A program made the position numbers and the translations under genes. The notes beneath the pieces are model-generated. The model worked only from the letters and a program-made list of their open reading frames with translations. It did not search any database and was not told where the DNA came from. Positions 11,980 through 53,009 of a stretch of DNA of 64,000 nucleotides are shown here, in pieces. Source of the DNA: Alphaproteobacteria bacterium UBA3768 (GTDB lineage: Bacteria > Pseudomonadota > Alphaproteobacteria > CAAHEQ01 > UBA3637); assembly GCA_002372315.1 (NCBI GenBank), contig DFFU01000004.1:29785-93784 (forward strand), given 5' to 3'. Every line of letters starts with the position of its first letter. Within the stretch, counting starts at the first letter, position 1.

Positions 11980-12607
11980 AAGAATTTAAATTTTCCAACT
12001 GCTCTTTAAATTGAACTATTCTGTCAGCAATTTTTTGTGTTTGTTTCAAACTATTTTTCCAATTATCAGGCATTTGTTCCAGTAATTTAATAATTTGGGT
12101 TGGTTGCTGATCTATGATAGCTTGCTCAATTTGATCCAAAACAGCTCTTGGTGTATTACCTGAGGCATTCATATCTTGAACATCAAACAGCAAATCTGGC
12201 AATACTTTCAAGTATTCTGTATACGAAACTTTGTTATTTCGTACTTGATTGAATAATAAGTATTTCTTTTCTTTTCTGAATGTATTTAAAAGATTATCCC
12301 ATGGTAAAGAACTTTTAGATACGCAAAAATTTTTTAAATTTTGATATAATTCAGTATAATCCGAACGATCTTCTAATTCTTTAATAAGATCTTGACAATC
12401 TTTGCCATTTAAAAAATCATCCCACGTATAAGATGATAATTTACCTTTTACCTCCACCACAGGCTGTACGGAAGACTCTGTTTTAGCCTCTTGCACAGTA
12501 GTATTTTGTTGCTGCTCTGCCGGCATATCCTGTGCAACAGTTGGTGTGAAATAACAGCAACATCCACAAATGATTGCCAATTTTCCTACGTTTTTTATAT
12601 TTAGCAT
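11954..12607 (-). CDS. hypothetical secreted protein or lipoprotein
   Basis: N-terminal signal-like sequence with a Cys cluster (IICGCCCY); in operon position upstream of the hemY-like gene. Confidence 0.45.
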   Translation of the reverse strand: MLNIKNVGKLAIICGCCCYFTPTVAQDMPAEQQQNTTVQEAKTESSVQPVVEVKGKLSSYTWDDFLNGKDCQDLIKELEDRSDYTELYQNLKNFCVSKSSLPWDNLLNTFRKEKKYLLFNQVRNNKVSYTEYLKVLPDLLFDVQDMNASGNTPRAVLDQIEQAIIDQQPTQIIKLLEQMPDNWKNSLKQTQKIADRIVQFKEQLENLNSFEKGAEND

Positions 12608-12627
12608 TTTCCCCCCTTAATTTTTAA

Positions 12628-14109
12628 TTATTCTTCATCATTTTGATACACTGAAAAATATTTTTGAATAGCTGTATTGTTGATTTTTACATGAAAGTCA
12701 GCAGCATAACTTTGTTGAAGTGCATTCAACAGGTCTGCTGTATACATTCTTCGTGCACTATCCTTTTCTTGTTGTGAAAGCGTTGTTGTATTTTGAATGA
12801 TCTGATTAACCACAATAATCCATGTACCATTTTGGTAGGGATAAGATTGTACATTTTGATAACCTTGTTTTTGGGCAAATAATGAGGGTAACAGCTCAAT
12901 AGGTACATGTTTAGAATTTGTTTGTTCAACTGTTTCCCACATGGGGTAATATTTTCCCCAACTTTGCGATTGACTTATTTGTCCTGTCACTTTCTTGACC
13001 AATTCTGGTAATTTTTCTTTGCGTTGTTCTGTTGACCATAACTCTATAACTTGATTTTTCACTGTGTTATATGGTTTGGGTGAAATAGGCGTAATTTTTT
13101 CAACTTCAGCCACTAAGAAACCATTAGAATATTCCACAATACTAGATGATTCTTTTTCGGATAAAGTAAAAATTTCTTGTAAAATTGGATTTTCAGTTAA
13201 CCTGTTATCTGCTATATTCCCATTTTTATTGCGACCGCTGATATCTATGGTTAAAGTTACGGGCAAAGGCAATTGCAACCTTTGGGCGGCCTCTTTCAAA
13301 GGAATACCTTCACCTAATAAATCCTCTAGGCTCTGAATGCTTTGATACATCAAATCATATGCTTTATCTTTTTCTCCTTTAAAGTTGTTGGGTAATATGG
13401 ATAAAAGCTGAATTGTGCGATATTCTGGATTCATAAATTCTTCTTGATATGCCTCATAATATTCCTTTAATGTTGTTTCATCTGGATGATCAATTTGAAT
13501 ATCTTTTAGTGCTAAAAAGACAGCCGTAATTTCTCTTTTTTCTTTTTGACTGTTGGCCATCAAGTCGATAAGTTGTCCATTGTCAGGTTCGATTTTTGAT
13601 AAAGCATGTGATAAATGTTGTTGTGTGAGTTCTTGTTTTAACTTTTCAGATAGTTGTGTCTGATTCATTTTCAATTGGCTCATATATGCATAAAATAAAT
13701 TTGTATCAAAAGTACCTAAGTTATTTTGAAATAACGGATATCTTTCAACATACTTTCGAACGGCTTCATCAGAGGCTGTTAACCCAATCCTATCAGCAAT
13801 TTTTTGCGTAATTTTTTCTTGAACTAACTGTTGAATAACCTGATTCAATAGGCCCATTTGTATGGCTTTTGAGGTTGAAATATTTTGTCCAGTTAAAGTT
13901 GAAATTTTATAGCGTTCTTGATTAAGTTGATTATTAATTTGATCAATGGAAATTACATCTGAACCAACTGTAATGGCCTCATGATCCTTTACAGAAAAAC
14001 TATTGGATAAACCTCCAAGTCCCCAAAAAACCATCATGCTGATGGCTAAAGAAGCACAAATTATTTTTGCAACCCAGCTATTTCCAATCTTGTTAAAGAA
14101 CGTAATCAT
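12628..14109 (-). CDS. PpiD/SurA-like periplasmic chaperone
   Basis: N-terminal membrane anchor then a SurA-N-like chaperone domain; start at ATG 14109 with AAAGGA RBS. Confidence 0.6.
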   Translation of the reverse strand: MITFFNKIGNSWVAKIICASLAISMMVFWGLGGLSNSFSVKDHEAITVGSDVISIDQINNQLNQERYKISTLTGQNISTSKAIQMGLLNQVIQQLVQEKITQKIADRIGLTASDEAVRKYVERYPLFQNNLGTFDTNLFYAYMSQLKMNQTQLSEKLKQELTQQHLSHALSKIEPDNGQLIDLMANSQKEKREITAVFLALKDIQIDHPDETTLKEYYEAYQEEFMNPEYRTIQLLSILPNNFKGEKDKAYDLMYQSIQSLEDLLGEGIPLKEAAQRLQLPLPVTLTIDISGRNKNGNIADNRLTENPILQEIFTLSEKESSSIVEYSNGFLVAEVEKITPISPKPYNTVKNQVIELWSTEQRKEKLPELVKKVTGQISQSQSWGKYYPMWETVEQTNSKHVPIELLPSLFAQKQGYQNVQSYPYQNGTWIIVVNQIIQNTTTLSQQEKDSARRMYTADLLNALQQSYAADFHVKINNTAIQKYFSVYQNDEE

Positions 14110-37957: not shown

Positions 37958-38869
37958 CTACGCATTTTTAACAGATTTGTCAAGTGGGGTTTTTATCTTA
38001 CTAATAGCCTCAGCCCCAGAAACAATATCAATCAGTTCATCTGTAATTTGATTTTGTCGCATTTGTTGATAAAGCAACTCTAACTCATTGAGCTTTTCAT
38101 CAATATTCTTTTCTGCTTGTTGCATATGTATCATACGAGTATAATGTTCTGATGCTAAAGAAGCTGTTAGAGCATGGGTTACAGATAGGGTAAAATATTC
38201 ATGTATGAAAGCAGAAAAAAGTTCTTTATAATCAGCAGTTACCAAAGGCAAAGATCTGCCAGTCCATTTCTTTGTTTTTAAATTTTCAAGTATTCCTTTT
38301 TGAAAAGGAATCAACTGTTCTGCTTGAACTTTTAATCCAGTTGCTTGACGTGAAGTGTAAAAGAGCCAGACTGAATCAAAACCTTCATGAGAAACAGAAT
38401 GGTGAATTTTTGCTAAAATAACATTGGATAAAGGTGAAATTTCTTTGATGGTATTAGAATTGTTATAACAGGCCAATTTAGGCGTTTCTTTTGGAAAATT
38501 AAAATGCGCTAAGCGTTTGCCGACTGTAATAACTTTGATCTGACTTTGAGGAAATTGATCGTATAAAGTATCTTGCATTTTTTTGATGACATCACGATTA
38601 AAACGACCTACTAATCCATTATCTGATCCTATAACGATGGCAAGTACTTTGTTCTTTTGTTTTGATATCTCAGGAACTTCAAATTGAAAATTTTCTTGAA
38701 CAAAAAGACCTTGAAAAGCCAAATATAAATTTTCATTGCATTGCTTTAAAGATTTTAACGCTTTTTCAAATTGTCCCACAGAAACAGATGACAACATTTT
38801 CATTGTGCTGACGATACCGCGCAGGTCATTTGTTGTTTTAATGCGTTTATTTAATATTTCTTGACTCAT
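37958..38869 (-). CDS. atpG: ATP synthase gamma subunit (N-ATPase-type operon)
   Basis: gamma-subunit N- and C-terminal helices; overlaps atpA by 4 nt. Confidence 0.85.
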   Translation of the reverse strand: MSQEILNKRIKTTNDLRGIVSTMKMLSSVSVGQFEKALKSLKQCNENLYLAFQGLFVQENFQFEVPEISKQKNKVLAIVIGSDNGLVGRFNRDVIKKMQDTLYDQFPQSQIKVITVGKRLAHFNFPKETPKLACYNNSNTIKEISPLSNVILAKIHHSVSHEGFDSVWLFYTSRQATGLKVQAEQLIPFQKGILENLKTKKWTGRSLPLVTADYKELFSAFIHEYFTLSVTHALTASLASEHYTRMIHMQQAEKNIDEKLNELELLYQQMRQNQITDELIDIVSGAEAISKIKTPLDKSVKNA

Positions 38870-40392
38870 TCCTTGGAAACCAATCCTTTTTTTATCAGGG
38901 CGTGTTCAAATGTCTTTAACAGAAGTTCTTTATCTTTTTCATTCAATTTTTCTTTTTTTTCTGTCCAAGCTGTTATCATGTGTGAAAAATTATTTTTTAA
39001 AATTTGATCAATCAACTCTTGTGCAGTGGATATTTTTTCTTCAGTAACATTATCCAGTAATCCATTATTCAATGCTAAAAAAATACCTATTTGGGTGCTT
39101 GCATCAAATAAAAGGTATTGACGTTGTTGCAAAACGGAACGTATTGTGCGTCCACGTTTTAAGCGTGCTAGCGTATCCCCTTCCATTTGGACTCCAAATT
39201 TGGAAAAAGATTCCAATTCTTCAAATTGAGAATAGAAAAGTTTTAATGGGGCTACCAAGGAACGATAAGCTGGTAATTGTGCACTACTTCCCACACGAGA
39301 TACTGAACGACCAGTATCAATAGCAGGCATTTGCCCTTTTTGATATAATGCGTTTGATAGGTATATTTGTCCGTCTGTGATTGAAATAACATTTGTAGGA
39401 ATATAGGCCGAAATATTTCCTGCTTCTGTGGCCACAATGGGGAGAGCCGTTAAAGATCCACCACCAAATTTAGGGCGCAAATGAGTAGCGCGTTCCAATA
39501 AACGTGAATGTAAATAAAAAATATCACCTGGATAGGCCTCGCGTCCAGGTGGCGTACGTAACAATAATGACATTTGTCGATAAGCTCTTGCATGTGCTGT
39601 CAAATCATCATAAACAACTAAAACATCTTTTCCTTTACTCATAAAATATTCACCAATAGAGGTGGCTGCGTAGGGGGCGATGTATTGTAAACCAGCTTCA
39701 TCTTCACCACTAGCGATAACAACAACACTGTTTTTCAACATATCGTACTCATTTAATGTATTGATGACACGTGCAGTATCACTTAAGCGTTGACCAATGG
39801 CACAATATATGCAAATTACTCCAGAATTCTTTTGATTTAAAATGGTATCAACAGCAATAGCGGTTTTCCCAGTTTGTCTGTCGCCCAATATCAATTCACG
39901 TTGGCCACGACCAATTGGTGTAAAACAGTCAATGGCCTTTATACCAGTTTGTAGAGGGGTATTTACAGGTAAGCGTGCCATAATGGGAGGGGCCTCACGC
40001 TCAATAGGAAGGGTTTGTTTTGTGGCCAATATTCCTTTGTTATCCAACGGTTGTCCCAATGGATTGATAACGCGACCAAGCAATTCATTGCCAACAGGAA
40101 TATCTAAAACTTTATGTGTTTGGGTGGCTCTATCACCCGCTTTGAGTGTATCAGCGTTTGTTAAAAAAATGACACCCGCTCCTTCATTGGATAAACTGTG
40201 AACCATACCAATGACACCATTTTTAAAACTTAATAGTTCATTGATTTTTGCATGGGTTAACCCAGAAACAATAGCTGTTCCAGCCGATAATGATTCAATG
40301 GAATTAACTTCCTTTATGCGTAATTGAAAAGAAGATTTGTTTAGTGCTTTGCTAACATTTTTTCGCGCGGCTTTGGCAATATTTTTTTGCAT
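38866..40392 (-). CDS. atpA: ATP synthase alpha subunit (N-ATPase-type operon)
   Basis: Walker A GDRQTGKT and conserved alpha-subunit motifs. Confidence 0.9.
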   Translation of the reverse strand: MQKNIAKAARKNVSKALNKSSFQLRIKEVNSIESLSAGTAIVSGLTHAKINELLSFKNGVIGMVHSLSNEGAGVIFLTNADTLKAGDRATQTHKVLDIPVGNELLGRVINPLGQPLDNKGILATKQTLPIEREAPPIMARLPVNTPLQTGIKAIDCFTPIGRGQRELILGDRQTGKTAIAVDTILNQKNSGVICIYCAIGQRLSDTARVINTLNEYDMLKNSVVVIASGEDEAGLQYIAPYAATSIGEYFMSKGKDVLVVYDDLTAHARAYRQMSLLLRTPPGREAYPGDIFYLHSRLLERATHLRPKFGGGSLTALPIVATEAGNISAYIPTNVISITDGQIYLSNALYQKGQMPAIDTGRSVSRVGSSAQLPAYRSLVAPLKLFYSQFEELESFSKFGVQMEGDTLARLKRGRTIRSVLQQRQYLLFDASTQIGIFLALNNGLLDNVTEEKISTAQELIDQILKNNFSHMITAWTEKKEKLNEKDKELLLKTFEHALIKKGLVSKE

Positions 40393-40400
40393 TGGCTCTC

Positions 40401-41168
40401 CTATTCTTCATGACTTAAAAGGTTGTCTAAAGCTTGTTGCATTTCATCCAAATAATTTTTTATTGTCCAATCAATGGCAATATCTTGAATGCGAATTTCA
40501 ACTCCCATAACTAAAGAGGGAGCAACATTATATTGAATTTTTGTTTTGGGCGAAATTTGCAAATAAGAACGTAAAAAACGATTCATATCCCTGCGGTGTT
40601 TTTCATCTAAAGTTTTTGATGAATTTATATAAATAACTTTTTGATTTAAAAGTACTTTATTTAGTTCATTCTTTTCAGATTGTTTTAATTTTATTAATTT
40701 TTCATAAAACAAATTTAAAACACGTTCAATAGGGGTTGCTCCCGTTAAATCAGTGATGATGCGTCCAGCTATTTTCATAAAATCATGACTGATAAATTGT
40801 TCCAATTCTGTTTTTAAATTCTCGTTTTGTAACTTTATTTGTTCATTCAGTTGATGCTTTAATTGATTGGCTTCTTTTTTGATTTTTATCAAGTTATCTT
40901 TACGATTTTGAGCCAATTCTTTTGCAAGATCATTTCGTTGACTTTGTAAAGATTTTTCCAAAGCATTTTTTTCTATCTGCAAAGTTTGAAATTCAGATTC
41001 AGCTTGACGGTGTAGGTTGTTTGCTGATTCAATTTTTTCATTTATTTCAGACTGTCGTTTAGCAATAACATTAGTAATCGGTGCATATAAGAAGTGTTTT
41101 AGCAACCACACTAAAACGAGCAGGTTAATAATTTCTGCAAAAAAAGTAATCCAATCAATTTGCATCAA
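40401..41168 (-). CDS. atpF: ATP synthase b subunit with a C-terminal region resembling the delta (OSCP) C-terminal domain (b-delta-like fusion)
   Basis: N-terminal TM plus long coiled-coil (b-like); the last ~100 aa end in VMGVEIRIQDIAIDWTIKNYLDEMQQAL, resembling the delta C-terminal IGG..V..GD..ID.S....L..L motif; no separate atpH in the operon. Confidence 0.7.
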   Translation of the reverse strand: MMQIDWITFFAEIINLLVLVWLLKHFLYAPITNVIAKRQSEINEKIESANNLHRQAESEFQTLQIEKNALEKSLQSQRNDLAKELAQNRKDNLIKIKKEANQLKHQLNEQIKLQNENLKTELEQFISHDFMKIAGRIITDLTGATPIERVLNLFYEKLIKLKQSEKNELNKVLLNQKVIYINSSKTLDEKHRRDMNRFLRSYLQISPKTKIQYNVAPSLVMGVEIRIQDIAIDWTIKNYLDEMQQALDNLLSHEE

Positions 41169-41174
41169 AATCCT

Positions 41175-41453
41175 TTATTTGCTAGCGTGTTCAATAACAT
41201 AATTCCAAAATGGGTTGGCATACAAAATCAAAATCGTAATCACAAAAGCATAAATAGCGGTTGATTCTATCATTGCCATTGACACAAACAATGTGCGTGT
41301 AATGTTAGATGATTCATCAGGTTGCTGTGCCATTGAACGTAAAGCATTTGCCGCTACATTGGCTTCCCCAAGTGCCGGTCCAATACCACCAATTGCAATG
41401 CACAAAGCTGCCGCAATAATTGACATCGCTCCAATTAAAGTAATCGCATCCAT
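41175..41453 (-). CDS. atpE: ATP synthase c subunit with Na+-binding-type ligand set
   Basis: hairpin c subunit; helix 2 ESTAIYAFVITILILYANPF closely matches the Na+-binding c-ring signature (ES/ET..Y); Glu in helix 1 (GPALGE). Confidence 0.8.
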   Translation of the reverse strand: MDAITLIGAMSIIAAALCIAIGGIGPALGEANVAANALRSMAQQPDESSNITRTLFVSMAMIESTAIYAFVITILILYANPFWNYVIEHASK

Positions 41454-41456
41454 ATT

Positions 41457-42152
41457 CTATACTCCTTTTGTATCGGTTGATTGACTAGACTCTTTCGGGG
41501 CGACCGCCGATACATAAACAATCGCCAAGAGTGCAAAAATATATGCTTGAATCGTACCAGTTAAAAGACCAAGCATTTGCATGGGTAAAGGTACAATAAA
41601 CGGGGCTAAAGTAATTAAAACACTGCTGATGACAACACCACTCAGCATATTTCCATATAAACGAAAAGCTAAGGAAAAGGTGGAAGAAAAATCACTGACA
41701 ATATTCATGGGTAACATAATGGGGGTAGGTTCAATAAATTTTTTTAAATATCCTTTCAATCCAGCATTTTTAATACCATAATAAGGAATTGCAAAAAATA
41801 CGCAACAAGCAAATGCCGTTGTTGTTGTTAAACTGGCTGTGGGTACCCTGAACCAAGGAATGATACTGAGTAAATTTGACATTGCAATAAATAAAAAGAA
41901 AGTACCGATAATAGGCAAATATTTAACGGGATTATCATTAGCAACATCTTTTATTTGTTTTTGAATACTCATCACAATCATTTCCATGATTATCTGTGTT
42001 TTACTGATTTCCCCATGTGTCTTTAAGTGATAAGTCAGCCATAAAGAAATACTCACTAAAACCAACATAACAATCCATGTATAAAATATGGTTGCATTGA
42101 TGGGCAGGGGGCCCAAGTGAAAAATAATCAGCTGATCAATATTTTCTAACAT
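41457..42152 (-). CDS. atpB: ATP synthase a subunit
   Basis: polytopic protein with the essential Arg in an RLYGN motif. Confidence 0.8.
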   Translation of the reverse strand: MLENIDQLIIFHLGPLPINATIFYTWIVMLVLVSISLWLTYHLKTHGEISKTQIIMEMIVMSIQKQIKDVANDNPVKYLPIIGTFFLFIAMSNLLSIIPWFRVPTASLTTTTAFACCVFFAIPYYGIKNAGLKGYLKKFIEPTPIMLPMNIVSDFSSTFSLAFRLYGNMLSGVVISSVLITLAPFIVPLPMQMLGLLTGTIQAYIFALLAIVYVSAVAPKESSQSTDTKGV

Positions 42153-42439
42153 GTTTTCCCCTTATTGTTTAAAAAAGGAACCAATATCGATCTTGTTCCT
42201 ACAAAACCAACAAACAACCATAAAAATAAAGTAGGATTTTTTAAAATCAATAATATTGCAACAATCGCAAACAAGGTCAAACGCATAATGGACGACAAAA
42301 ATAAAAACAGTCCTTTATTTTTTATTTTGGGTAAGTTTTGGGTGGTATACCACAGCAATGTAAAGTAGATTAGGCTTAAGATAATGCCAGATATAACAGC
42401 AATTCCTATCATGTTCGCAGAAAGATTTATATCAATCAT
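42146..42439 (-). CDS. atpR: N-ATPase-associated small membrane protein AtpR-like
   Basis: ~97-aa three-helix membrane protein with a conserved Arg in the last helix; position between atpQ and atpB as in N-ATPase operons. Confidence 0.5.
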   Translation of the reverse strand: MIDINLSANMIGIAVISGIILSLIYFTLLWYTTQNLPKIKNKGLFLFLSSIMRLTLFAIVAILLILKNPTLFLWLFVGFVGTRSILVPFLNNKGKTC

Positions 42440-42729
42440 TTTTCTTTCCTTTCTGAAGTTGATAGGATTTTTTGAGCCATATTGTGGCATTAATAAAACC
42501 AATAACAAAACCAACAATAATCAAATTAAATGACCATGAAAAATTAGTGGGATGATATTTATCCAATAGGCATCCGATAAAAATCCCCAGTACAACAGGA
42601 ATAGCAATTTGCCAGCCATATATACTTAAAATAGCCACATTATAATTGATTTTAATCTGACTGCGTCTTTGGCGCTTATTTGCCTTTTGAATTAATTGGT
42701 TGGCTGTTTTATTCAATTGCCTTTGAAAA

Positions 42730-42737
<8 letters not shown>
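42432..42737 (-). CDS. atpQ: N-ATPase-associated small membrane protein AtpQ/AtpI-like
   Basis: 101-aa two-helix membrane protein placed between atpC and atpR. Confidence 0.5.
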
Positions 42738-44558
<1,821 letters not shown>

Positions 44559-44580
44559 TCAAGCGAAAAAAATATCTAAA

Positions 44581-44609
44581 TTGACAAAAAGAGCTTTTGG
44601 GTGTATAAT
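44581..44609 (+). promoter_or_regulatory. consensus sigma70 promoter (TTGACA-N17-TATAAT) for nadK
   Basis: read directly in the sequence; -10 ends 20 nt before ATG 44629, which has a GGAGAGGG RBS. Confidence 0.5.
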
Positions 44610-44628
44610 ATTGTACACAGGAGAGGGA

Positions 44629-45357
44629 ATGAAACTACATTTTACTTTTGGTAAAGATAGTGCAAAAGACGCATTTGAATCATGTGTGCGACTGTATGGA
44701 CAGAGTCTGTTACACTCTGCATCAGCACACGTTGTTTTGGGGGGAGATGGAACGACATTGGATGCCCTGCGCTCTCAGGCAGAGCAGGGGGTTGATATAC
44801 CTATTTTTGCGCTTAATTATGGAACATTGGGATGGCTGACAAATCATAAAGATTGGGAGGATTTGCCTGATCGAATTTTAAGGTCTAAACAACTTCCTAT
44901 TACGCCTTTAAAAGCGGATATTACCACTTTTTTAAATGGAAAAAAAATCACGGCTTATGCTTTTAATGAATTTTCTTTCTTTCGTGGTCCTTCTATGCAG
45001 GCTGTGGATTTAAACGTTGTAACACCACAATGGCAACAAAATGTGCGAGGAGATGGTGTTATAGTATCAACCCCTTTAGGATCAAATGCTTATCTGAAAT
45101 CAGCAGGGGGACCACAATTAATGCCAGGTGCTAGTGTGATGGCTATTCAAACAAATAATGCATTGCACCCATTTTCCAAAATTATCTCATCGGATGAAGC
45201 AGTCGGTTTTTCTGTCCATCAACATGAAAAAAGGCCGGTCCGAATTGAATGTGATTCTAAATTGGCAATAGATAATGTTTCACATGCCGTTGTAAGGGTG
45301 GCAAAAAATCGTGTTCAAACCCTTTTATTTGATAGAATAGAAAGAAAAAGAGATTAA
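44629..45357 (+). CDS. nadK: NAD+ kinase
   Basis: GGDGT and NEFS motifs; start at internal ATG 44629 downstream of the promoter. Confidence 0.8.
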   Translation: MKLHFTFGKDSAKDAFESCVRLYGQSLLHSASAHVVLGGDGTTLDALRSQAEQGVDIPIFALNYGTLGWLTNHKDWEDLPDRILRSKQLPITPLKADITTFLNGKKITAYAFNEFSFFRGPSMQAVDLNVVTPQWQQNVRGDGVIVSTPLGSNAYLKSAGGPQLMPGASVMAIQTNNALHPFSKIISSDEAVGFSVHQHEKRPVRIECDSKLAIDNVSHAVVRVAKNRVQTLLFDRIERKRD

Positions 45358-46893: not shown

Positions 46894-48570
46894 TTACTTT
46901 CTTTCAATCGGTTTATATTTGATGCGATGTGGAGTGTCAGCATCAATGCCTAAACGACGTTTACGATCTGCTTCATATTCAGCGTAGTTGCCTTCAAACC
47001 AAACAACCTGGCTGTCGCCTTCGAAAGCGAGGATATGCGTTGCCAACCTATCCAAAAACCATCGATCATGGCTGGTAATAACAGCGCATCCAGGAAAGTC
47101 CATCAAGGCTTCTTCCAATGCCCGCAAAGTATCCACATCCAAATCATTGGTCGGTTCATCCAATAATAAGACATTGGCGCCGGACTTTAACATTTTGGCC
47201 ATATGAACGCGATTGCGTTCCCCGCCGGAGAGCATCCCAATTTTCTTCTGTTGATCGGCTCCTTTAAAATTGAATTGAGCCACATATGCACGACTGGAAA
47301 TTTCGCGTTTTCCCAAGGTTAGCATATCATTACCACCCGAAATTTCCTGCCATACTGTGTTATTGTCATTCAAGGAATCTCGACTTTGATCTACATACCC
47401 CAACTTTACTGTTTCTCCCACACGGAATGTGCCTGCATCAGGTGTTTCTTGACCCGTAATAATGCGCATCAAAGTTGTTTTTCCTGCACCATTGGGACCA
47501 ATGACGCCGACGATACCACCGGCGGGCAGGTTAAAACTTAAATTATCAAATAACAACTTATCGCCGAAAGCTTTGCGTAAATTATCTGCTTTTAAAACTA
47601 AATCTCCCAAACGGGGACCGGCCGGAATAACAATCTGTGCAACGTCAGGTACTTTTTCATTGGATTTTTTTAGAAGTTCTTCATAGGCTGTGATACGTGC
47701 TTTAGACTTTGCCTGACGTGCTTTGGGGCTAGATCTCACCCATTCTAACTCTTCCTTCAAAGTTTTTTGACGTTTATCCTCGGCATTTTGTTCAATTTCT
47801 AATCGTTTTTCTTTTGCTTCCAACCATTTTGTATAGTTGCCTTCATAAGGAATACCTTCACCCCGATCCATTTCCAAAATCCACCCCGTTACATTATCCA
47901 AAAAATAACGATCATGTGTAATCATCACAACAGTATTGGGAAAATTTTTCAAATAAACTTGAAGCCATGCAACAGATTCTGCATCCAAATGGTTGGTAGG
48001 TTCATCCAACAACAGCATATCTGGTTTGGACAACAACAGGCGACACAAAGCGACCCGTCTTTTTTCTCCCCCAGATAATTTCGTCACATCAGCTTCAGCA
48101 GGTGGGCAACGCAAAGCATCCATTGCGATTTCTACATTTCTTTCAAAATCCCAACCGCCCACTGCATCAATTTTTTCTTGCAGTTCGGCTTGCTCGGCCA
48201 ATAACTTATCCATATCGGCTTCGGGGTCAGCAAAGGCATTGTTCACTTCTTCCCAGCGTTTCATGAGATCGCGAATTTCACCCACACCATCCATAATGTT
48301 TTCAATGACATTTTTGGATGGATCTAGCTGTGGTTCTTGGGGAAGATAGCCCACTTTTACGCCTTCGGCAGGCCAAGCTTCGCCTGTAAAATTATCATCT
48401 AATCCTGCCATAATTTTCATCAATGTTGATTTACCTGCACCATTTGGCCCAATGACACCAATTTTTGCACCAGGAAAAAAACTCAACCAAATATGCTTTA
48501 AAACCTCTTTTCCCCCAGGAAAAGTTTTACATAAATCTTTCATCACATAAATATACTGATAAGCGGGCAT
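46894..48570 (-). CDS. ettA: ABC-F family translation-throttle ATPase EttA
   Basis: two ABC ATPase cassettes with inter-domain linker; ~555 aa typical of EttA. Confidence 0.85.
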
Positions 48571-48649
48571 CTTTGAATCCTTTGTTAAAGTTGAAAATTA
48601 GGGGATATTCTATCCAAAAAAGCCCCAAAAGTCAAGATTAAAATCTCTG

Positions 48650-48811
48650 TTAAAACGATCGGATATCGCCATTTTTAATGGTCCAAATTCTTTCAAAAAT
48701 TTTATCAGCTTGTCTTTTCTTTTTGGGATCATCAACAATCTTGTTCCATTTTCTTAAGAGTTGACAGACTTCTTTTTGTTCTTTGGACATGGTTTCTGTT
48801 CTTTTTCTCAT
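48650..48811 (-). CDS. possible 53-aa small ORF translationally coupled (ATGA overlap) to the fucosyltransferase gene
   Basis: minus-strand translation MRKRTETMSKEQKEVCQLLRKWNKIVDDPKKKRQADKIFERIWTIKNGDIRSF; start codon overlaps the fucT stop. Confidence 0.25.
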   Translation of the reverse strand: MRKRTETMSKEQKEVCQLLRKWNKIVDDPKKKRQADKIFERIWTIKNGDIRSF

Positions 48812-49791
48812 CGATACTTTCCGTCCTTATCTATTTTTTTGTGAAAATATCTTAAAATAAAATATTTTAGTATCAATTTGATATCACGCCATTTCAAAGT
48901 TCGATAATCAAAATCTTGATAAGGTTTAAAGTAAAAACGACGTTTGGCTTTATCAATGGGTTGTGAAAATATGTGGTCAAAAAATTCAAAGATTTTTTCG
49001 TCCGAATATTTTTCAAAAGTATCTGTCGTAAAGGTGGGTTCTTGCATTATCGACCAATAAAGTTCATCATTGGTATCAATCTCCTTCACACGAGCTATCA
49101 AAGTATCCATGTCAGGATAATCATGAGCATTGATAAACGCTTTTGGGTTAAAATCTTGGACAGCCAAAGTATCACCATAATAAATAGGAATACATCCACT
49201 GGCAAAAGCTTCCAGCAATTTTTCAGTTGTGTAGCCTGGTGTGTAAGTATTTTCAGCACATAAGCAAAACTTATATCCTTTTTGAAATTTCAGTTTATCC
49301 GGAACAGGTCCTCCCACTGAATTGCGCCACTTTCCACCTGAAGCCACTGTTTTATATGCAGAAAGAGCTTCAAACATTTTTTCACGCATACCATCTGTTT
49401 GGGTTGAATTGGAAATCACTGTTGCACAAAAAGAACGATTTAGAGCCTCTTCTTTGGAAAACATAGTTGTTTTTTCTTCGGCCAATTTCATGATGCCTTT
49501 TGAATATGCCCAAAGGGGAAGTCGCATATATCTATCATCGAAAGAAAGTGTAGCAAAACCAATGGCATAATCGCAATAGTTAAAGTTTGGGATTATGTTT
49601 TCGCCCGTCATAAAAATGCGAATACAATCATAGTTATGGTGCTCATTATCAGCGGGTGTATAAAAAACATAATCTGGGTTGTCTGAAACCTGTAAATCAT
49701 ATTTGCTTTCCAATAATTTTTTAAAAGGAAAAGCATCGGGGGTAAATTTTTCCCCAAATCCACAAAACTTAATTTTAATGGTTTGTGCCAT
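48808..49791 (-). CDS. alpha-1,3-fucosyltransferase, glycosyltransferase family 10
   Basis: GT10 signature FCLCAENTYTPGYTTEKLLEAFASGCIPIYYGD (consensus FxLxFENSxxxxYxTEK...IPIYxG). Confidence 0.8.
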   Translation of the reverse strand: MAQTIKIKFCGFGEKFTPDAFPFKKLLESKYDLQVSDNPDYVFYTPADNEHHNYDCIRIFMTGENIIPNFNYCDYAIGFATLSFDDRYMRLPLWAYSKGIMKLAEEKTTMFSKEEALNRSFCATVISNSTQTDGMREKMFEALSAYKTVASGGKWRNSVGGPVPDKLKFQKGYKFCLCAENTYTPGYTTEKLLEAFASGCIPIYYGDTLAVQDFNPKAFINAHDYPDMDTLIARVKEIDTNDELYWSIMQEPTFTTDTFEKYSDEKIFEFFDHIFSQPIDKAKRRFYFKPYQDFDYRTLKWRDIKLILKYFILRYFHKKIDKDGKYR

Positions 49792-50702
49792 TATTTAACT
49801 CCTTTATTTAAATACTGCCAACGCTTATTGGTTGATATATCCCAAATAATCATTCTGTTATTAAAAAGTAAGGAACCATGTACAATGGTTTCATTTAAAT
49901 TAATAGTTTTGTCTAAAGCATATTTGCTATATTTAATGGCAATGTCAGTTAGTTGTTGTTGCGTTCTTTGAATAGCTAGATCAATTTTAGAAAAATCAAA
50001 AAGAGGATGTTTGTCTTTTTTCAAAAATTCAGTCAATGCTTTTTCATCTACAAAACTTTTTTTTAAAGGTTCATTTTCATCTAACTCTTTTTTAAATTTT
50101 TGAACCCATTCGCTTATTTTTGTTTTTTGATATTCTTTAAGAGTGGAGCTATCACGGATGGCTGTGTGTTTAATGTTCAAAGAGGGATCGATTGAAAGAA
50201 AATCCAAAGGTGATAATTTACCCCATTTAATACTGCTAGCATCTGTAGCAGGATAGATTTCTATTTGAGGTAGAGAATTTTTATACCATATGCCAAAACT
50301 GTATATCCAATCCAATCGATTGGATGGATATTTCCCTTGAACCACTTCATGAACAACGCAGTTATAGCCTTGATCATGGCGTTCATGTATGTAATCAGCA
50401 CATTTTTGTAGATTTTTATCTAACCCGATATTTGAAAAGGCGATAGCTTCAACTGGTGTTGTTTCAGATTTTTTTTCACATCTAACAACGAGGTTTGAAA
50501 TTTTATATTCCGTTATAATTGATTTCAAGGAAGAAGTTATATCTTTTTTCGTTAAATCTTCTTGTTCCCCCAAAAAGAGATTAATCAAAAAATAAGAAGT
50601 ATCTTTGAAAATATCATATAAACGATATAGAGAATCGAACTTCTCACATCCCGTAAAATGGGGACATTTTTTTTCAATCTCTTTTTGGAAAATATAGGGC
50701 AT
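49791..50702 (-). CDS. hypothetical protein co-transcribed with the GT10 fucosyltransferase (TAATG stop-start overlap)
   Basis: 303-aa ORF; begins immediately after the dut stop; no recognisable family. Confidence 0.5.
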   Translation of the reverse strand: MPYIFQKEIEKKCPHFTGCEKFDSLYRLYDIFKDTSYFLINLFLGEQEDLTKKDITSSLKSIITEYKISNLVVRCEKKSETTPVEAIAFSNIGLDKNLQKCADYIHERHDQGYNCVVHEVVQGKYPSNRLDWIYSFGIWYKNSLPQIEIYPATDASSIKWGKLSPLDFLSIDPSLNIKHTAIRDSSTLKEYQKTKISEWVQKFKKELDENEPLKKSFVDEKALTEFLKKDKHPLFDFSKIDLAIQRTQQQLTDIAIKYSKYALDKTINLNETIVHGSLLFNNRMIIWDISTNKRWQYLNKGVK

Positions 50703-51164
50703 TTAATTTTTCCCTGTTGAGCCTAAACCACCAACACCTCGCGTTGTATCGTTGGTATCAATTTTATCGACTTCAACTATTTGAGGACGGATAATAGGAC
50801 AAACAATTGCCTGACAAATTCTATCGCCAGGATTGACCACAAAATCAGTGGGCCCCCAATTACTTAAAATTGTGATAAATTCACCCCTGAAACCATAATC
50901 ATAAGTGCCAATGGAATTGACCAAGCCAATACCATTTCTGGCGGCCAATCCTGAACGGGGTCTGGTTTGAATTTCATAAGCATTATCTTCTGATTCTAAT
51001 TTTAATTTAACACCGTTGGGAATCAGGGCATGAGTGCCAGCTTTCACAACCATTGGTTCTTTAATGGCAGCGCGCAAGTCAAAACCTGAATCATCTGCAT
51101 GTTTATAGGCTAAAGGCCCCCAATTTTTATCGTAATTTTCCAAATATTCAACGATTAATCGCAT
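50703..51164 (-). CDS. dut: dUTP diphosphatase
   Basis: all five dUTPase motifs (SGFDLRA, RSGLA, GTYDYGFRGE, RICQ, RGVGGLGSTG). Confidence 0.85.
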   Translation of the reverse strand: MRLIVEYLENYDKNWGPLAYKHADDSGFDLRAAIKEPMVVKAGTHALIPNGVKLKLESEDNAYEIQTRPRSGLAARNGIGLVNSIGTYDYGFRGEFITILSNWGPTDFVVNPGDRICQAIVCPIIRPQIVEVDKIDTNDTTRGVGGLGSTGKN

Positions 51165-52589: not shown

Positions 52590-53009
52590 ATGAAAAAAAT
52601 ATTTTATACTCTAGCTTTATGCTTGCTTTTAACTGGTTGTTATACTCAGCGTTTTCCTATTTCAGCAAGAAATGTTTCATATGAACCTACACATTCGGAA
52701 ATGAAAATTTTCTTATTATGGGGATTAGCATTGCAACCGCAATATACTGACCCTGCACAAATTTGTGGTGGTTTAAATAATGTTGCAGCCGTAGAAAGCA
52801 AGATGTCATTTTTAGATGGTGTTGTTAGTTTCTTTACATTTGGTATTATTTCACCTCAAACATCCAATGTGTATTGTTTGAATAATGGAGGTTATCAAAC
52901 AAGATATCAACAAATGCCGACCAGTTTTGTATATCCAAATGGGCAAAATCAAAACTATCAGCCACAGTATAATGGCCAGTATCAAGGTGGATATACTCAA
53001 CAAAGGTAA
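52590..53009 (+). CDS. Bor/Iss family lipoprotein with a Gln/Tyr-rich C-terminal extension
   Basis: lipobox LLLTGC; central ICGG.NNV...FGIISP..VYC region aligns with the Bor signature (ICGG.NVV...LGIYTP..VYC). Confidence 0.6.
   Translation: MKKIFYTLALCLLLTGCYTQRFPISARNVSYEPTHSEMKIFLLWGLALQPQYTDPAQICGGLNNVAAVESKMSFLDGVVSFFTFGIISPQTSNVYCLNNGGYQTRYQQMPTSFVYPNGQNQNYQPQYNGQYQGGYTQQR

What the first reader, a model, noticed from the sequence alone, without database searches (positions are those of the whole stretch)
48650..51164. GT10 alpha-1,3-fucosyltransferase translationally coupled to an unknown gene and to dut
ORF 48808-49791 carries the diagnostic GT10 motif (FCLCAENTYTPGYTTEKLLEAFASGCIPIYYGD), the family of eukaryotic and Helicobacter Lewis-antigen fucosyltransferases. 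Its start overlaps the stop of a 303-aa unknown ORF (TAATG), which in turn begins 1 nt after dut, so all three appear co-transcribed. A possible 53-aa ORF overlaps the fucT stop (ATGA). GT10 enzymes are rare in alphaproteobacteria. In a host-associated organism a fucosyltransferase could decorate LPS or proteins with host-like fucosylated glycans (molecular mimicry), or the gene may be horizontally acquired. The operon partner of unknown function may be an accessory or acceptor-specificity factor.
Basis: partly seen in the sequence, partly recalled or inferred. Interest (0 to 1): 0.6.

Follow-up and report, generated by a model that had tools for sequence, protein, structure and literature searches.

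The report
Fucosyltransferase plus orphan ATP-grasp gene after dut
A rumen/gut alphaproteobacterium keeps an ordinary, inherited Helicobacter-type fucosyltransferase gene between two housekeeping genes, and the unknown gene next to it is not its helper but an independently mobile, sequence-orphan gene whose protein is predicted to fold like an ATP-dependent ligase.

Summary
On the minus strand lie dut (50703-51164), a 303-aa ORF "X" (49791-50702), a GT10 fucosyltransferase (48808-49791) and a 53-aa ORF (48650-48811), joined TAA|ATG, TAATG and ATGA.

The GT10 is a clear family member: both Pfam domains, H. pylori FucT E 5e-40, model TM 0.74, and all six donor/catalytic residues invariant. It was not recently acquired. 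Every relative of at least 48% identity with enough flank sits in the same dut–GT10–ettA slot, whatever the outer flanks, and its codon usage is typical of the window.

X is not a GT10 accessory. GT10 occurs without X and X without GT10. A 1.06-kb tract (3' third of dut plus all of X) is 99.3% identical to a genome otherwise 10-19% diverged, and it ends exactly at the X stop codon.

X has no sequence relatives outside its clade among 1.84 billion representatives. Its confident model matches only ATP-grasp enzymes, best the tubulin-tyrosine-ligase family, at low TM (0.3-0.4).

The 53-aa ORF has no homologue and lies in a window-specific insertion. ettA has its own conserved promoter. No GDP-fucose genes lie in the window.

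Verdict: an ordinary GT10, plus a moderately interesting orphan ATP-grasp-like cassette coupled to dut.

The parts
50703..51164 (-). dut, dUTP diphosphatase (153 aa), first gene of the unit
   Evidence: NCBIfam NF001862 equivalog 130.4 bits (cut-off 103) and Pfam dUTPase 2e-16. Present at the head of the slot in every related locus.
49791..50702 (-). X, 303-aa orphan protein with a predicted ATP-grasp (tubulin-tyrosine-ligase-like) fold. Its ATG follows the dut TAA directly.
   Evidence: No Pfam, NCBIfam, PDB-sequence, PADLOC or PHROGs hit. Only 19 homologues among 5.8e9 proteins, and only its own clade among 1.84e9 representatives. AF2 pLDDT 88.7, pTM 0.84. Foldseek top 50 PDB hits are all ATP-grasp enzymes, best TTL at E 3.7e-5, TM 0.30-0.41. 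BFVD top hits are the TTL family. dN/dS 0.15-0.19.
48808..49791 (-). GT10 fucosyltransferase (327 aa): GT-B catalytic body 1-282, low-confidence linker 288-297, basic/aromatic C-terminal helix 296-317
   Evidence: PF18025 and PF00852. HpFucT E 5.4e-40. Model pLDDT 89.2, best match 2nzw at TM 0.74 and 30% identity. E64, R136, N181, Y187, E190 and K191 are invariant in 34 homologues and align to HpFucT E95, R195, N240, Y246, E249 and K250.
48650..48811 (-). 53-aa ORF inside a roughly 160-185-nt insertion unique to this genome; probably not a functional gene
   Evidence: No tblastn match in any related locus. Its DNA is absent from L001, L002, L005 and L006, where GT10 or X abuts the ettA promoter. 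The only database hit is itself.
48607..48635 (-). Conserved sigma-70-type promoter of ettA (TTGACT, 17 nt, TAGAAT)
   Evidence: Promoter scan, 10 of 12 matches. The 62-66-nt element is 80-85% identical upstream of ettA in L001, L002, L005, L006 and L008. In L007, L098 and L019 the same element lies upstream of GT10 instead.
46894..48570 (-). ettA (ABC-F translation factor), conserved right-hand border of the slot
   Evidence: ABC_tran, ABC_tran_Xtn, ABC_tran architecture in the syntenic loci. 87-98% amino-acid identity across all related loci.
49788..50851 (-). Recent recombination tract (3' third of dut plus all of X) shared with the L002 genome
   Evidence: 7 mismatches in about 1,060 bp (99.3%), against 81-91% identity in the flanks (pgk, the 5' two-thirds of dut and ettA) and 77-86% across GT10. 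The right end lies at the X stop / GT10 start. dS of X is 0.029, against 1.23 for GT10 and 1.9 for ettA.

Best explanation
The locus is a conserved housekeeping gene pair (dut upstream, ettA downstream) of an uncultured rumen/gut alphaproteobacterial lineage. The gap between the two genes carries cargo.

Cargo 1, ancestral to the lineage, is a Helicobacter-type GT10 enzyme with a complete donor-binding and catalytic site. It most likely takes GDP-L-fucose in the cytoplasm and adds alpha-1,3/4-linked fucose to a cell-envelope glycan precursor (LPS/LOS or another surface polysaccharide). It evolves about ten times faster than ettA, but under purifying selection.

Cargo 2, gained later in one sub-clade, is X. 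It is a cytoplasmic 35-kDa protein with no sequence relatives and a predicted, highly derived ATP-grasp (TTL-like) fold. It is inserted exactly at the dut stop codon, so its translation is coupled to dut. It most likely acts as an ATP-dependent carboxylate-amine (peptide-type) ligase on an unknown substrate.

X and GT10 are gained, lost and exchanged independently, so X is not a GT10 specificity factor. The 53-aa ORF is a by-product of a strain-specific insertion. ettA is transcribed from its own promoter.

Shown: gene identities, synteny, independent occurrence, the recombination tract, purifying selection and the fold predictions. Inferred: the donor, acceptor and linkage of GT10, any enzymatic activity of X, and co-transcription.
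For: GT10 membership and intact site.

Ancestral synteny: dut-GT10-ettA is found with outer flanks pgk (L001, L011), ruvAB (L009), rpsD/rpoA (L098) and yajC-secDF (L102), and in the metagenome loci L016-L020. The 74 loci with GT10 at 47% identity or less have neither dut nor ettA nearby. Composition is typical of the window.

GDP-fucose as the family's donor: a 46%-identical homologue sits directly after gmd/fcl-like genes, with PMM, ManC, PMI and a flippase in the same cluster.

Independence of X and GT10. Recombination tract and dS contrast. A possible X deletion scar in L019.

X fold. X as a sequence orphan. Zero-spacing dut/X junction in the window, L002, L006, L007, L098, L100 and L102.

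Conserved ettA promoter. orf53 unsupported.
Against: No GDP-fucose synthesis or salvage gene and no polysaccharide gene lies in the 64-kb window, and the rest of the genome could not be read, so donor supply and acceptor are unverified.

A glycosyltransferase embedded in a dut/ettA operon, rather than a glycan cluster, is unusual and unexplained.

The ATP-grasp assignment of X rests on one AF2 model built from a shallow alignment (19 sequences, all at least 51% identical) and on low TM-scores (0.30-0.41). No profile method links X to any ATP-grasp family. The canonical Lys, ExR and ExN motifs can only be mapped by eye to R74, S127-N-R129 and D289-I-S291, so X could be inactive or do different chemistry.

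The GT10 C-terminal helix has a low hydrophobic moment (0.09), so a membrane anchor like that of HpFucT is not demonstrated.
Confidence: 0.6

Rival explanations
1. One reading: GT10 was horizontally acquired by a host-associated bacterium to display host-like fucosylated glycans, and X is its accessory or acceptor-specificity factor in one operon.
For: Head-to-tail overlaps of dut, X and GT10. X and GT10 are adjacent in at least seven contigs. The relatives come from rumen and gut samples.
Against: GT10 is syntenic across the whole lineage and compositionally native. X occurs without GT10 and GT10 without X. The recombination tract transfers X alone. X and GT10 identities to the window do not co-vary: X 99% with GT10 84%; X 62% with GT10 74%; X 61% with GT10 49%.
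Confidence: 0.08
2. X and GT10 are two separate, mix-and-match decorating enzymes of the same surface glycan: fucose addition by GT10, and amino-acid or amide ligation to a sugar carboxylate by X. Both are kept variable by phage or host pressure.
For: Both evolve much faster than the flanks while under purifying selection. Presence and absence are polymorphic in one slot that also takes other insertions: orf53 DNA in the window and a 317-aa ORF in L006. ATP-grasp ligases acting on O-antigen and teichuronopeptides are noted in PMC4431377.
Against: There is no glycan-cluster context. X is tied to dut rather than to GT10. Nothing here points to a sugar substrate.
Confidence: 0.17
3. X belongs functionally with dut or is a conflict gene (anti-phage or toxin-like protein modifier). 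It is a ligase that modifies a protein or nucleotide, is expressed in fixed ratio with dUTPase, and spreads by recombination because it is under strong episodic selection.
For: X starts at the dut stop codon in seven independent contigs. The transferred tract includes the dut 3' end. A recent inter-species sweep is evident. Divergent ATP-grasp clades are proposed as conflict-system protein ligases in PMC4431377.
Against: No PADLOC or PHROGs match. There is no adjacent immunity or partner gene. In L008, X is separated from the intact dut and is frameshifted.
Confidence: 0.15
4. X is not an enzyme. The ATP-grasp resemblance is an over-interpretation of a predicted model, and X is a structural or regulatory protein of unknown kind.
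For: TM-scores are only 0.30-0.41 with rmsd 9-15 Å. The classical Gly-rich loop, Lys and ExN are not recognisable. hhalign against recalled DdlB and RimK sequences gave probability below 0.1%.
Against: All 50 top PDB hits and the top BFVD hits belong to the one superfamily, at probability 0.95-1.0. The most conserved block of X (residues 113-165, 30 invariant positions) falls on the predicted central beta-sheet, where ATP-grasp enzymes bind nucleotide.
Confidence: 0.2

Closest known systems
Helicobacter pylori alpha-1,3-fucosyltransferase FucT/FutA (PDB 2NZW, 2NZX, 2NZY, 5ZOI; CAZy GT10)
   Same: Same two Pfam domains (FucT_N plus Glyco_transf_10). 30% identity, TM 0.74. The catalytic Glu (E95 in HpFucT, E64 here) and the donor-binding R, N, Y, E and K are conserved. 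No transmembrane segment. A C-terminal basic helix follows the catalytic body.
   Different: About 100 residues shorter. No DDLRxNY heptad repeats. One C-terminal helix rather than two, with a low hydrophobic moment. No poly-C phase-variation tract. Encoded between dut and ettA, not in an LPS context. Acceptor and linkage are unknown.
GT10 genes of gut bacteria inside polysaccharide clusters (for example P0111 in L013/L014)
   Same: 46% identity, the same length class (about 315 aa) and the same domains.
   Different: Those sit directly after gmd/fcl-like genes and next to a flippase, PMM, ManC and PMI. The window gene has no glycan or GDP-fucose genes within 64 kb.
Tubulin tyrosine ligase / TTLL family and other peptide-bond-forming ATP-grasp ligases (Ddl, RimK, Pby1, CDC123/R2K clade)
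   Same: Best and exclusive structural neighbours of the X model. Similar size. A conserved Arg-containing strand (S127-N-R129) and an acidic-x-polar final strand (D289-I-S291) lie where ExR and ExN would be expected (by-eye mapping; motif definitions from PMC4431377).
   Different: No detectable sequence or profile similarity. TM is only 0.3-0.4. An 80-residue helical insertion spans residues 185-264. There is no Gly-rich loop and Lys is replaced by Arg. Distribution is limited to one small clade.

Membership tests
CAZy GT10 / Pfam PF00852 + PF18025 (alpha-1,3/4-fucosyltransferases) | Significant match to the GT10 C-terminal catalytic domain model above gathering score | tested here: met
   PF00852 63.5 bits against cut-off 23.9, E 2.7e-17
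CAZy GT10 / Pfam PF00852 + PF18025 (alpha-1,3/4-fucosyltransferases) | Bacterial FucT N-terminal (acceptor-side) domain | tested here: met
   PF18025 99.3 bits against cut-off 27.2, E 1.8e-28, covering 1-89 of 91 model positions
CAZy GT10 / Pfam PF00852 + PF18025 (alpha-1,3/4-fucosyltransferases) | Catalytic base Glu and GDP-fucose-binding residues of HpFucT (E95, R195, N240, Y246, E249, K250) | tested here: met
   E64, R136, N181, Y187, E190 and K191 align to these residues and are invariant in 34 homologues. The roles of E95 and E249 are taken from PMC4202792; those of the other four from recalled knowledge of Sun et al. 2007.
CAZy GT10 / Pfam PF00852 + PF18025 (alpha-1,3/4-fucosyltransferases) | GT-B fold closest to solved GT10 structures | tested here: met
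   Model pLDDT 89.2. 2nzw TM 0.74, E 5.7e-22, followed by plant FUT13, human FUT9 and Arabidopsis FUT11.
CAZy GT10 / Pfam PF00852 + PF18025 (alpha-1,3/4-fucosyltransferases) | GDP-L-fucose available in the cell (gmd/fcl or fkp) | not testable with these tools
   None among the 30 window ORFs scanned besides the four of the locus. A 46% homologue is adjacent to gmd/fcl-like genes.
CAZy GT10 / Pfam PF00852 + PF18025 (alpha-1,3/4-fucosyltransferases) | Fucosyl transfer with alpha-1,3 or alpha-1,4 linkage to a defined acceptor | not testable with these tools
   Needs an enzyme assay.
H. pylori FucT subtype | Heptad repeats plus two amphipathic C-terminal membrane-anchoring helices | tested here: not met
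   The protein ends at residue 327 with one helix (296-317) after a short linker, and no repeat region. The hydrophobic moment of that helix is 0.09.
ATP-grasp superfamily (for X) | ATP-grasp three-dimensional fold | tested here: met
   AF2 pLDDT 88.7. All top 50 PDB Foldseek hits are ATP-grasp enzymes, best E 3.7e-5, probability 0.95-1.0, and the BFVD top hits agree. Caveat: TM is 0.30-0.41, and this is a predicted model from a shallow alignment.
ATP-grasp superfamily (for X) | Sequence or profile match to any curated ATP-grasp family (for example PF03133 TTL, PF08443 RimK, PF07478 Ddl_C, PF07065 D123) | tested here: not met
   No Pfam or NCBIfam hit for any of the 19 members, even at E <= 10. 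The profile against PDB sequences gave nothing. hhalign against recalled DdlB and RimK gave probability below 0.1%.
ATP-grasp superfamily (for X) | Nucleotide- and Mg-binding motifs (Lys in the RAGNYA strand, ExR, ExN in the final strand; PMC4431377) | tested here: inconclusive
   Only a by-eye mapping onto conserved residues R74, S127-N128-R129 and D289-I-S291. No structural superposition output was available.
ATP-grasp superfamily (for X) | ATP-dependent ligase activity through an acyl-phosphate intermediate | not testable with these tools
   Needs biochemistry.
dUTPase (Dut, homotrimeric type) | Equivalog-level model match | tested here: met
   NF001862 130.4 bits against cut-off 103, and TIGR00576 108.7 against 102.55
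Horizontally acquired island | Atypical composition and absence from the syntenic site in relatives | tested here: not met
   GT10 z-scores: GC -0.30, GC3 +0.20, codon likelihood +1.0. X z-scores: -1.55, -0.92, +0.9. GT10 is present at the same site throughout the lineage. X alone shows recent exchange, by homologous recombination within the lineage.

The most novel reading that the evidence does not exclude
X founds a new, extremely derived family of TTL-like ATP-grasp ligases confined to rumen/gut alphaproteobacteria. It is a self-contained cassette translationally coupled to dUTPase. It post-translationally tags a protein, or ligates an amino acid to a nucleotide or envelope precursor, and it has recently swept between species because it confers a strong selective advantage such as phage resistance. 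The conserved dut-GT10-ettA operon would then mark a previously unrecognised link between nucleotide hygiene, translation control and envelope fucosylation.
Probability: 0.15. Interest if true: 0.7.

Novelty: new variant of a known kind. Interest (0 to 1): 0.4.

Why it matters
The GT10 gene itself adds little. It is one more bacterial Helicobacter-type fucosyltransferase, inherited vertically, so the mimicry-by-HGT story should be dropped.

Two things are worth keeping. First, a fucosyltransferase is fixed inside a dut/ettA housekeeping operon across a whole uncultured lineage. That is an unusual home for a glycan gene. It also offers a compact set of diverged, natural GT10 variants (48-91% identity) for enzyme discovery, for example fucosylated oligosaccharide synthesis.

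Second, X is a protein family invisible to every sequence method, yet confidently predicted to be an ATP-grasp enzyme nearest the tubulin-tyrosine-ligase group. It carries a clean population-genetic signature of recent inter-species transfer. If it is active, it is a new branch of peptide-ligase chemistry in gut bacteria with an unknown target.

Tried and rejected
- Sequence searches for X found nothing: Pfam and NCBIfam on the window protein, Pfam on all 19 members at E <= 10, PDB by sequence and by profile, PADLOC and PHROGs. The profile search of 1.84e9 representatives returned only its own clade plus one spurious repetitive protein, P0147.
tblastn found no Ddl or RimK in the held loci from which to build real templates.
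- I looked for GDP-fucose genes in the window by Pfam-scanning 30 further ORFs and found none.
- I tested whether orf53 is a conserved gene: no tblastn hit in loci, no database homologue, no family match. Rejected as a supported gene.
- I considered phase variation through homopolymer tracts. X has three A8 runs and L008 is frameshifted at an A-run, but the tracts are not conserved among alleles, and GT10 has no tract of 8 or more. Not supported.
- I considered an amphipathic membrane anchor for GT10. The hydrophobic moment is low, so this is left as a weak inference.
- Rfam and tRNA scans found nothing in the region.
- I considered ettA as part of the same transcript. Read-through cannot be excluded, but a conserved promoter sits directly upstream of ettA.
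Full report
**1. What is in the sequence**

On the minus strand the ORF list gives four head-to-tail ORFs followed by ettA:
- dut, 50703-51164, 153 aa
- a 303-aa ORF, here called X, 49791-50702
- a 327-aa ORF, 48808-49791
- a 53-aa ORF, 48650-48811
- ettA, 46894-48570

The quoted motif is present at residues 175-207. No Rfam family or tRNA lies in the region, and no convincing terminator lies between dut and ettA.

**2. The GT10 gene**

The 327-aa protein matches Pfam FucT_N (1.8e-28) and Glyco_transf_10 (2.7e-17), both well above gathering score. It matches H. pylori alpha-1,3-fucosyltransferase chains at E 5e-40.

From that alignment, HpFucT E95, R195, N240, Y246, E249 and K250 correspond to E64, R136, N181, Y187, E190 and K191. 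All six are invariant in an alignment of 34 homologues spanning 39-91% identity. E95 and E249 are described as the catalytic base and the oxonium-stabilising residue, with inactive mutants, in PMC4202792.

An AF2 model (pLDDT 89.2) shows a GT-B body (1-282), a low-confidence linker (288-297) and one C-terminal helix (296-317). Its best structural match is 2NZW (TM 0.74, 30% identity), followed by plant and human GT10 enzymes.

Unlike HpFucT it has no heptad repeats and only one tail helix. That helix is basic and aromatic but has a low hydrophobic moment (0.09), so membrane anchoring is only an inference. Neither this protein nor X has a transmembrane-like segment.

**3. Ancestral, not acquired**

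The contig of origin is ENA ERZ12302850 NODE_34 (195 kb), also held at NCBI. Identical X copies occur in SRR873606 and in GCA_001684375.1. Species-representative genomes that carry X are all uncultured Alphaproteobacteria MAGs, one of them named as a rumen co-assembly.

Mapping the window proteins onto all fetched loci gives a consistent picture:
- Every GT10 of at least 48% identity with enough flank lies between dut and ettA.
- This holds even where the outer flanks differ: pgk in L001 and L011, ruvAB in L009, rpsD and rplQ/rpoA in L098, yajC-secDF in L102.
- In contrast, 74 metagenome loci with GT10 at 47% identity or less have neither gene nearby.
- One such distant homologue (46%) sits in a classical polysaccharide cluster directly after gmd/fcl-like genes, with PMM, ManC, PMI and a flippase in the same cluster. 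This supports GDP-fucose as the family's donor.

GC, GC3 and codon usage of GT10 and X are within the window's normal range.

GT10 is nevertheless fast-evolving. Its dN is 0.09-0.45, against 0.02-0.05 for ettA over the same comparisons, with dN/dS of 0.08-0.14, which indicates purifying selection.

A conserved promoter-like element (TTGACT, 17 nt, TAGAAT, window 48635-48607) precedes ettA in the window and in L001, L002, L005, L006 and L008. In L007, L098 and L019 the same element lies upstream of a 49%-identical GT10 that then abuts ettA. So GT10 rides with dut in some genomes and with ettA in others.

**4. X is independent of GT10**

The slot is polymorphic:

| Arrangement | Loci |
|---|---|
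| dut-X-GT10-ettA | window, L002, L006, L007/L098, L102 |
| dut-GT10-ettA, no X | L001, L009, L011, L016-L020 |
| dut-X-ettA, no GT10 | L005, L100/L101 |
| rearranged, with a dut fragment, a frameshifted X and an intact dut | L008 |

L019 keeps about 38 nt resembling the 5' end of X (ATG changed to ATA) straight after the dut stop. This looks like a deletion scar, but it is only suggestive.

Identities of X and GT10 to the window do not co-vary: 99% with 84%, 62% with 74%, 61% with 49%.

The most telling comparison is with L002. The flanking pgk, 5' dut and ettA are 81-91% identical at the nucleotide level and GT10 is 77-86%. Yet window 50851-49788, the 3' third of dut plus all of X, has 7 mismatches in about 1,060 bp, and the tract ends at the X stop / GT10 start. 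Correspondingly, dS is 0.029 for X against 1.23 for GT10 and 1.9 for ettA.

X was therefore recently exchanged between diverged genomes as a unit that excludes GT10. This contradicts the idea that X is a GT10 accessory or specificity factor.

**5. What X is**

X is a real gene: dN/dS is 0.15-0.19, with a block of 30 invariant residues between positions 113 and 165.

It has no sequence-detectable relatives. There is no Pfam, NCBIfam, PADLOC or PHROGs match and no PDB match by sequence or profile. Only 19 homologues exist among 5.8e9 proteins. A profile search of 1.84e9 cluster representatives found only its own clade (the one outside hit, P0147, is a spurious repeat protein).

The AF2 model is confident (pLDDT 88.7, pTM 0.84). 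Foldseek against the PDB returns only ATP-grasp enzymes in the top 50: tubulin tyrosine ligase best (E 3.7e-5), then TTLL6, D-Ala-D-Ala ligases, Pby1, synapsin and rifampin phosphotransferase. Against BFVD the top hits are giant-virus TTL-family proteins. TM-scores are low (0.30-0.41), partly because of an 80-residue helical insertion at 185-264.

Using the motif definitions in PMC4431377, I can place by eye:
- R74 where the nucleotide-binding Lys is expected
- the invariant S127-N-R129 where ExR is expected
- D289-I-S291 where ExN is expected

This mapping is not a test. hhalign against recalled DdlB and RimK sequences gave nothing.

I therefore hold "ATP-grasp fold" at moderate confidence and "active ligase" as inference. 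X starts at the dut stop codon with zero spacing in seven independent contigs, so its expression is probably coupled to dut.

**6. The 53-aa ORF**

It has no tblastn match in any related locus. Its DNA is part of a roughly 160-185-nt insertion absent from L001, L002, L005 and L006, where the preceding gene runs straight into the ettA promoter. Its only hit among 5.8e9 proteins is itself. It is not supported as a gene. The same site carries a different insertion in L006, a 317-aa ORF between duplicated promoter copies, so this spot tolerates insertions.

**7. GDP-fucose supply**

Pfam scans of 30 further window ORFs found no gmd, fcl, manC or fkp. The rest of the genome could not be read, so this stays open.

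**8. Verdict**

The GT10 identification is correct and the enzyme looks active, but it is an ordinary, vertically inherited member of a known family in an unusual housekeeping operon. HGT and an accessory role for the partner are not supported.

The partner is the more interesting object: an orphan, TTL-like ATP-grasp candidate that behaves as a mobile cassette attached to dut. Its substrate and function are unknown.

My leading view, at about 0.6 overall, is GT10 as an envelope-glycan fucosyltransferase and X as an independent cytoplasmic ATP-dependent ligase. Rivals are set out in the rival-explanations section:
- X and GT10 as mix-and-match decorators of one glycan
- X as a dut-linked or conflict gene
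- X as a non-enzyme

Interest is moderate (0.4).

Noticed in passing
window 3226-4608 (+): A 460-aa protein with a strong Pfam Mucin2_WxxW domain match (1.4e-26). This is a domain typical of animal mucins, here in a rumen/gut alphaproteobacterium.
   Followed up: no
window 52590-53009 (+): A 139-aa lipoprotein-like ORF listed with PF06291 Lambda_Bor in the precomputed Pfam hits. It is absent between pgk and the isochorismatase gene in the related contig L002, so it is a strain-specific accessory gene.
   Followed up: partly
L006 11877-13459: A 317-aa repeat-rich ORF (12115-13068, minus strand; no Pfam-independent family hit in PADLOC or PHROGs) is inserted between two copies of the ettA promoter element. 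The site just upstream of the ettA promoter takes insertions in different genomes.
   Followed up: partly
L008 3693-5517: A rearranged slot: an 81-aa dut fragment, an 83-bp duplicate (96%) of the pgk 5' end, X frameshifted at an A-run, then an intact dut. It could be a real pseudogenisation or a MAG assembly artefact.
   Followed up: partly
window 49791-50702 (-), X coding sequence: Three A8 homopolymer runs in 912 bp, against 0.39 per kb in the whole window. They are identical in L002 but not conserved in other X alleles, so there is no evidence for programmed phase variation.
   Followed up: yes
L019 763-830: Directly after the dut stop lie about 38 nt resembling the first codons of X with ATG changed to ATA, followed by the promoter element. 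This looks like a scar of X deletion.
   Followed up: partly
window 37958-44513 (-): The ATP synthase genes lie in the order beta, epsilon, two small ORFs, a, b/delta-like, alpha, gamma; no c-subunit ORF of 110 aa or more was listed. The syntenic L001 genes carry Pfam ATPase_gene1 and AtpR. From recalled knowledge, this is the layout of N-type ATPase operons.
   Followed up: no
L007/L098/L019 versus window 48607-48635: The same conserved promoter element lies downstream of GT10 in the window-type genomes but upstream of GT10 in genomes with the 49%-identical GT10 type. So GT10 is attached to the dut transcript in some genomes and to the ettA transcript in others.
   Followed up: yes
window 44470-45357 (+) versus 43125-44513 (-): The NAD-kinase-like ORF as listed (295 aa) overlaps the atpD start by 44 nt. 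Orthologues in L001 and L002 are called at 247-249 aa, so the true start is probably further downstream. It is only 49-53% identical to those orthologues, although the flanking genes are above 90%.
   Followed up: no
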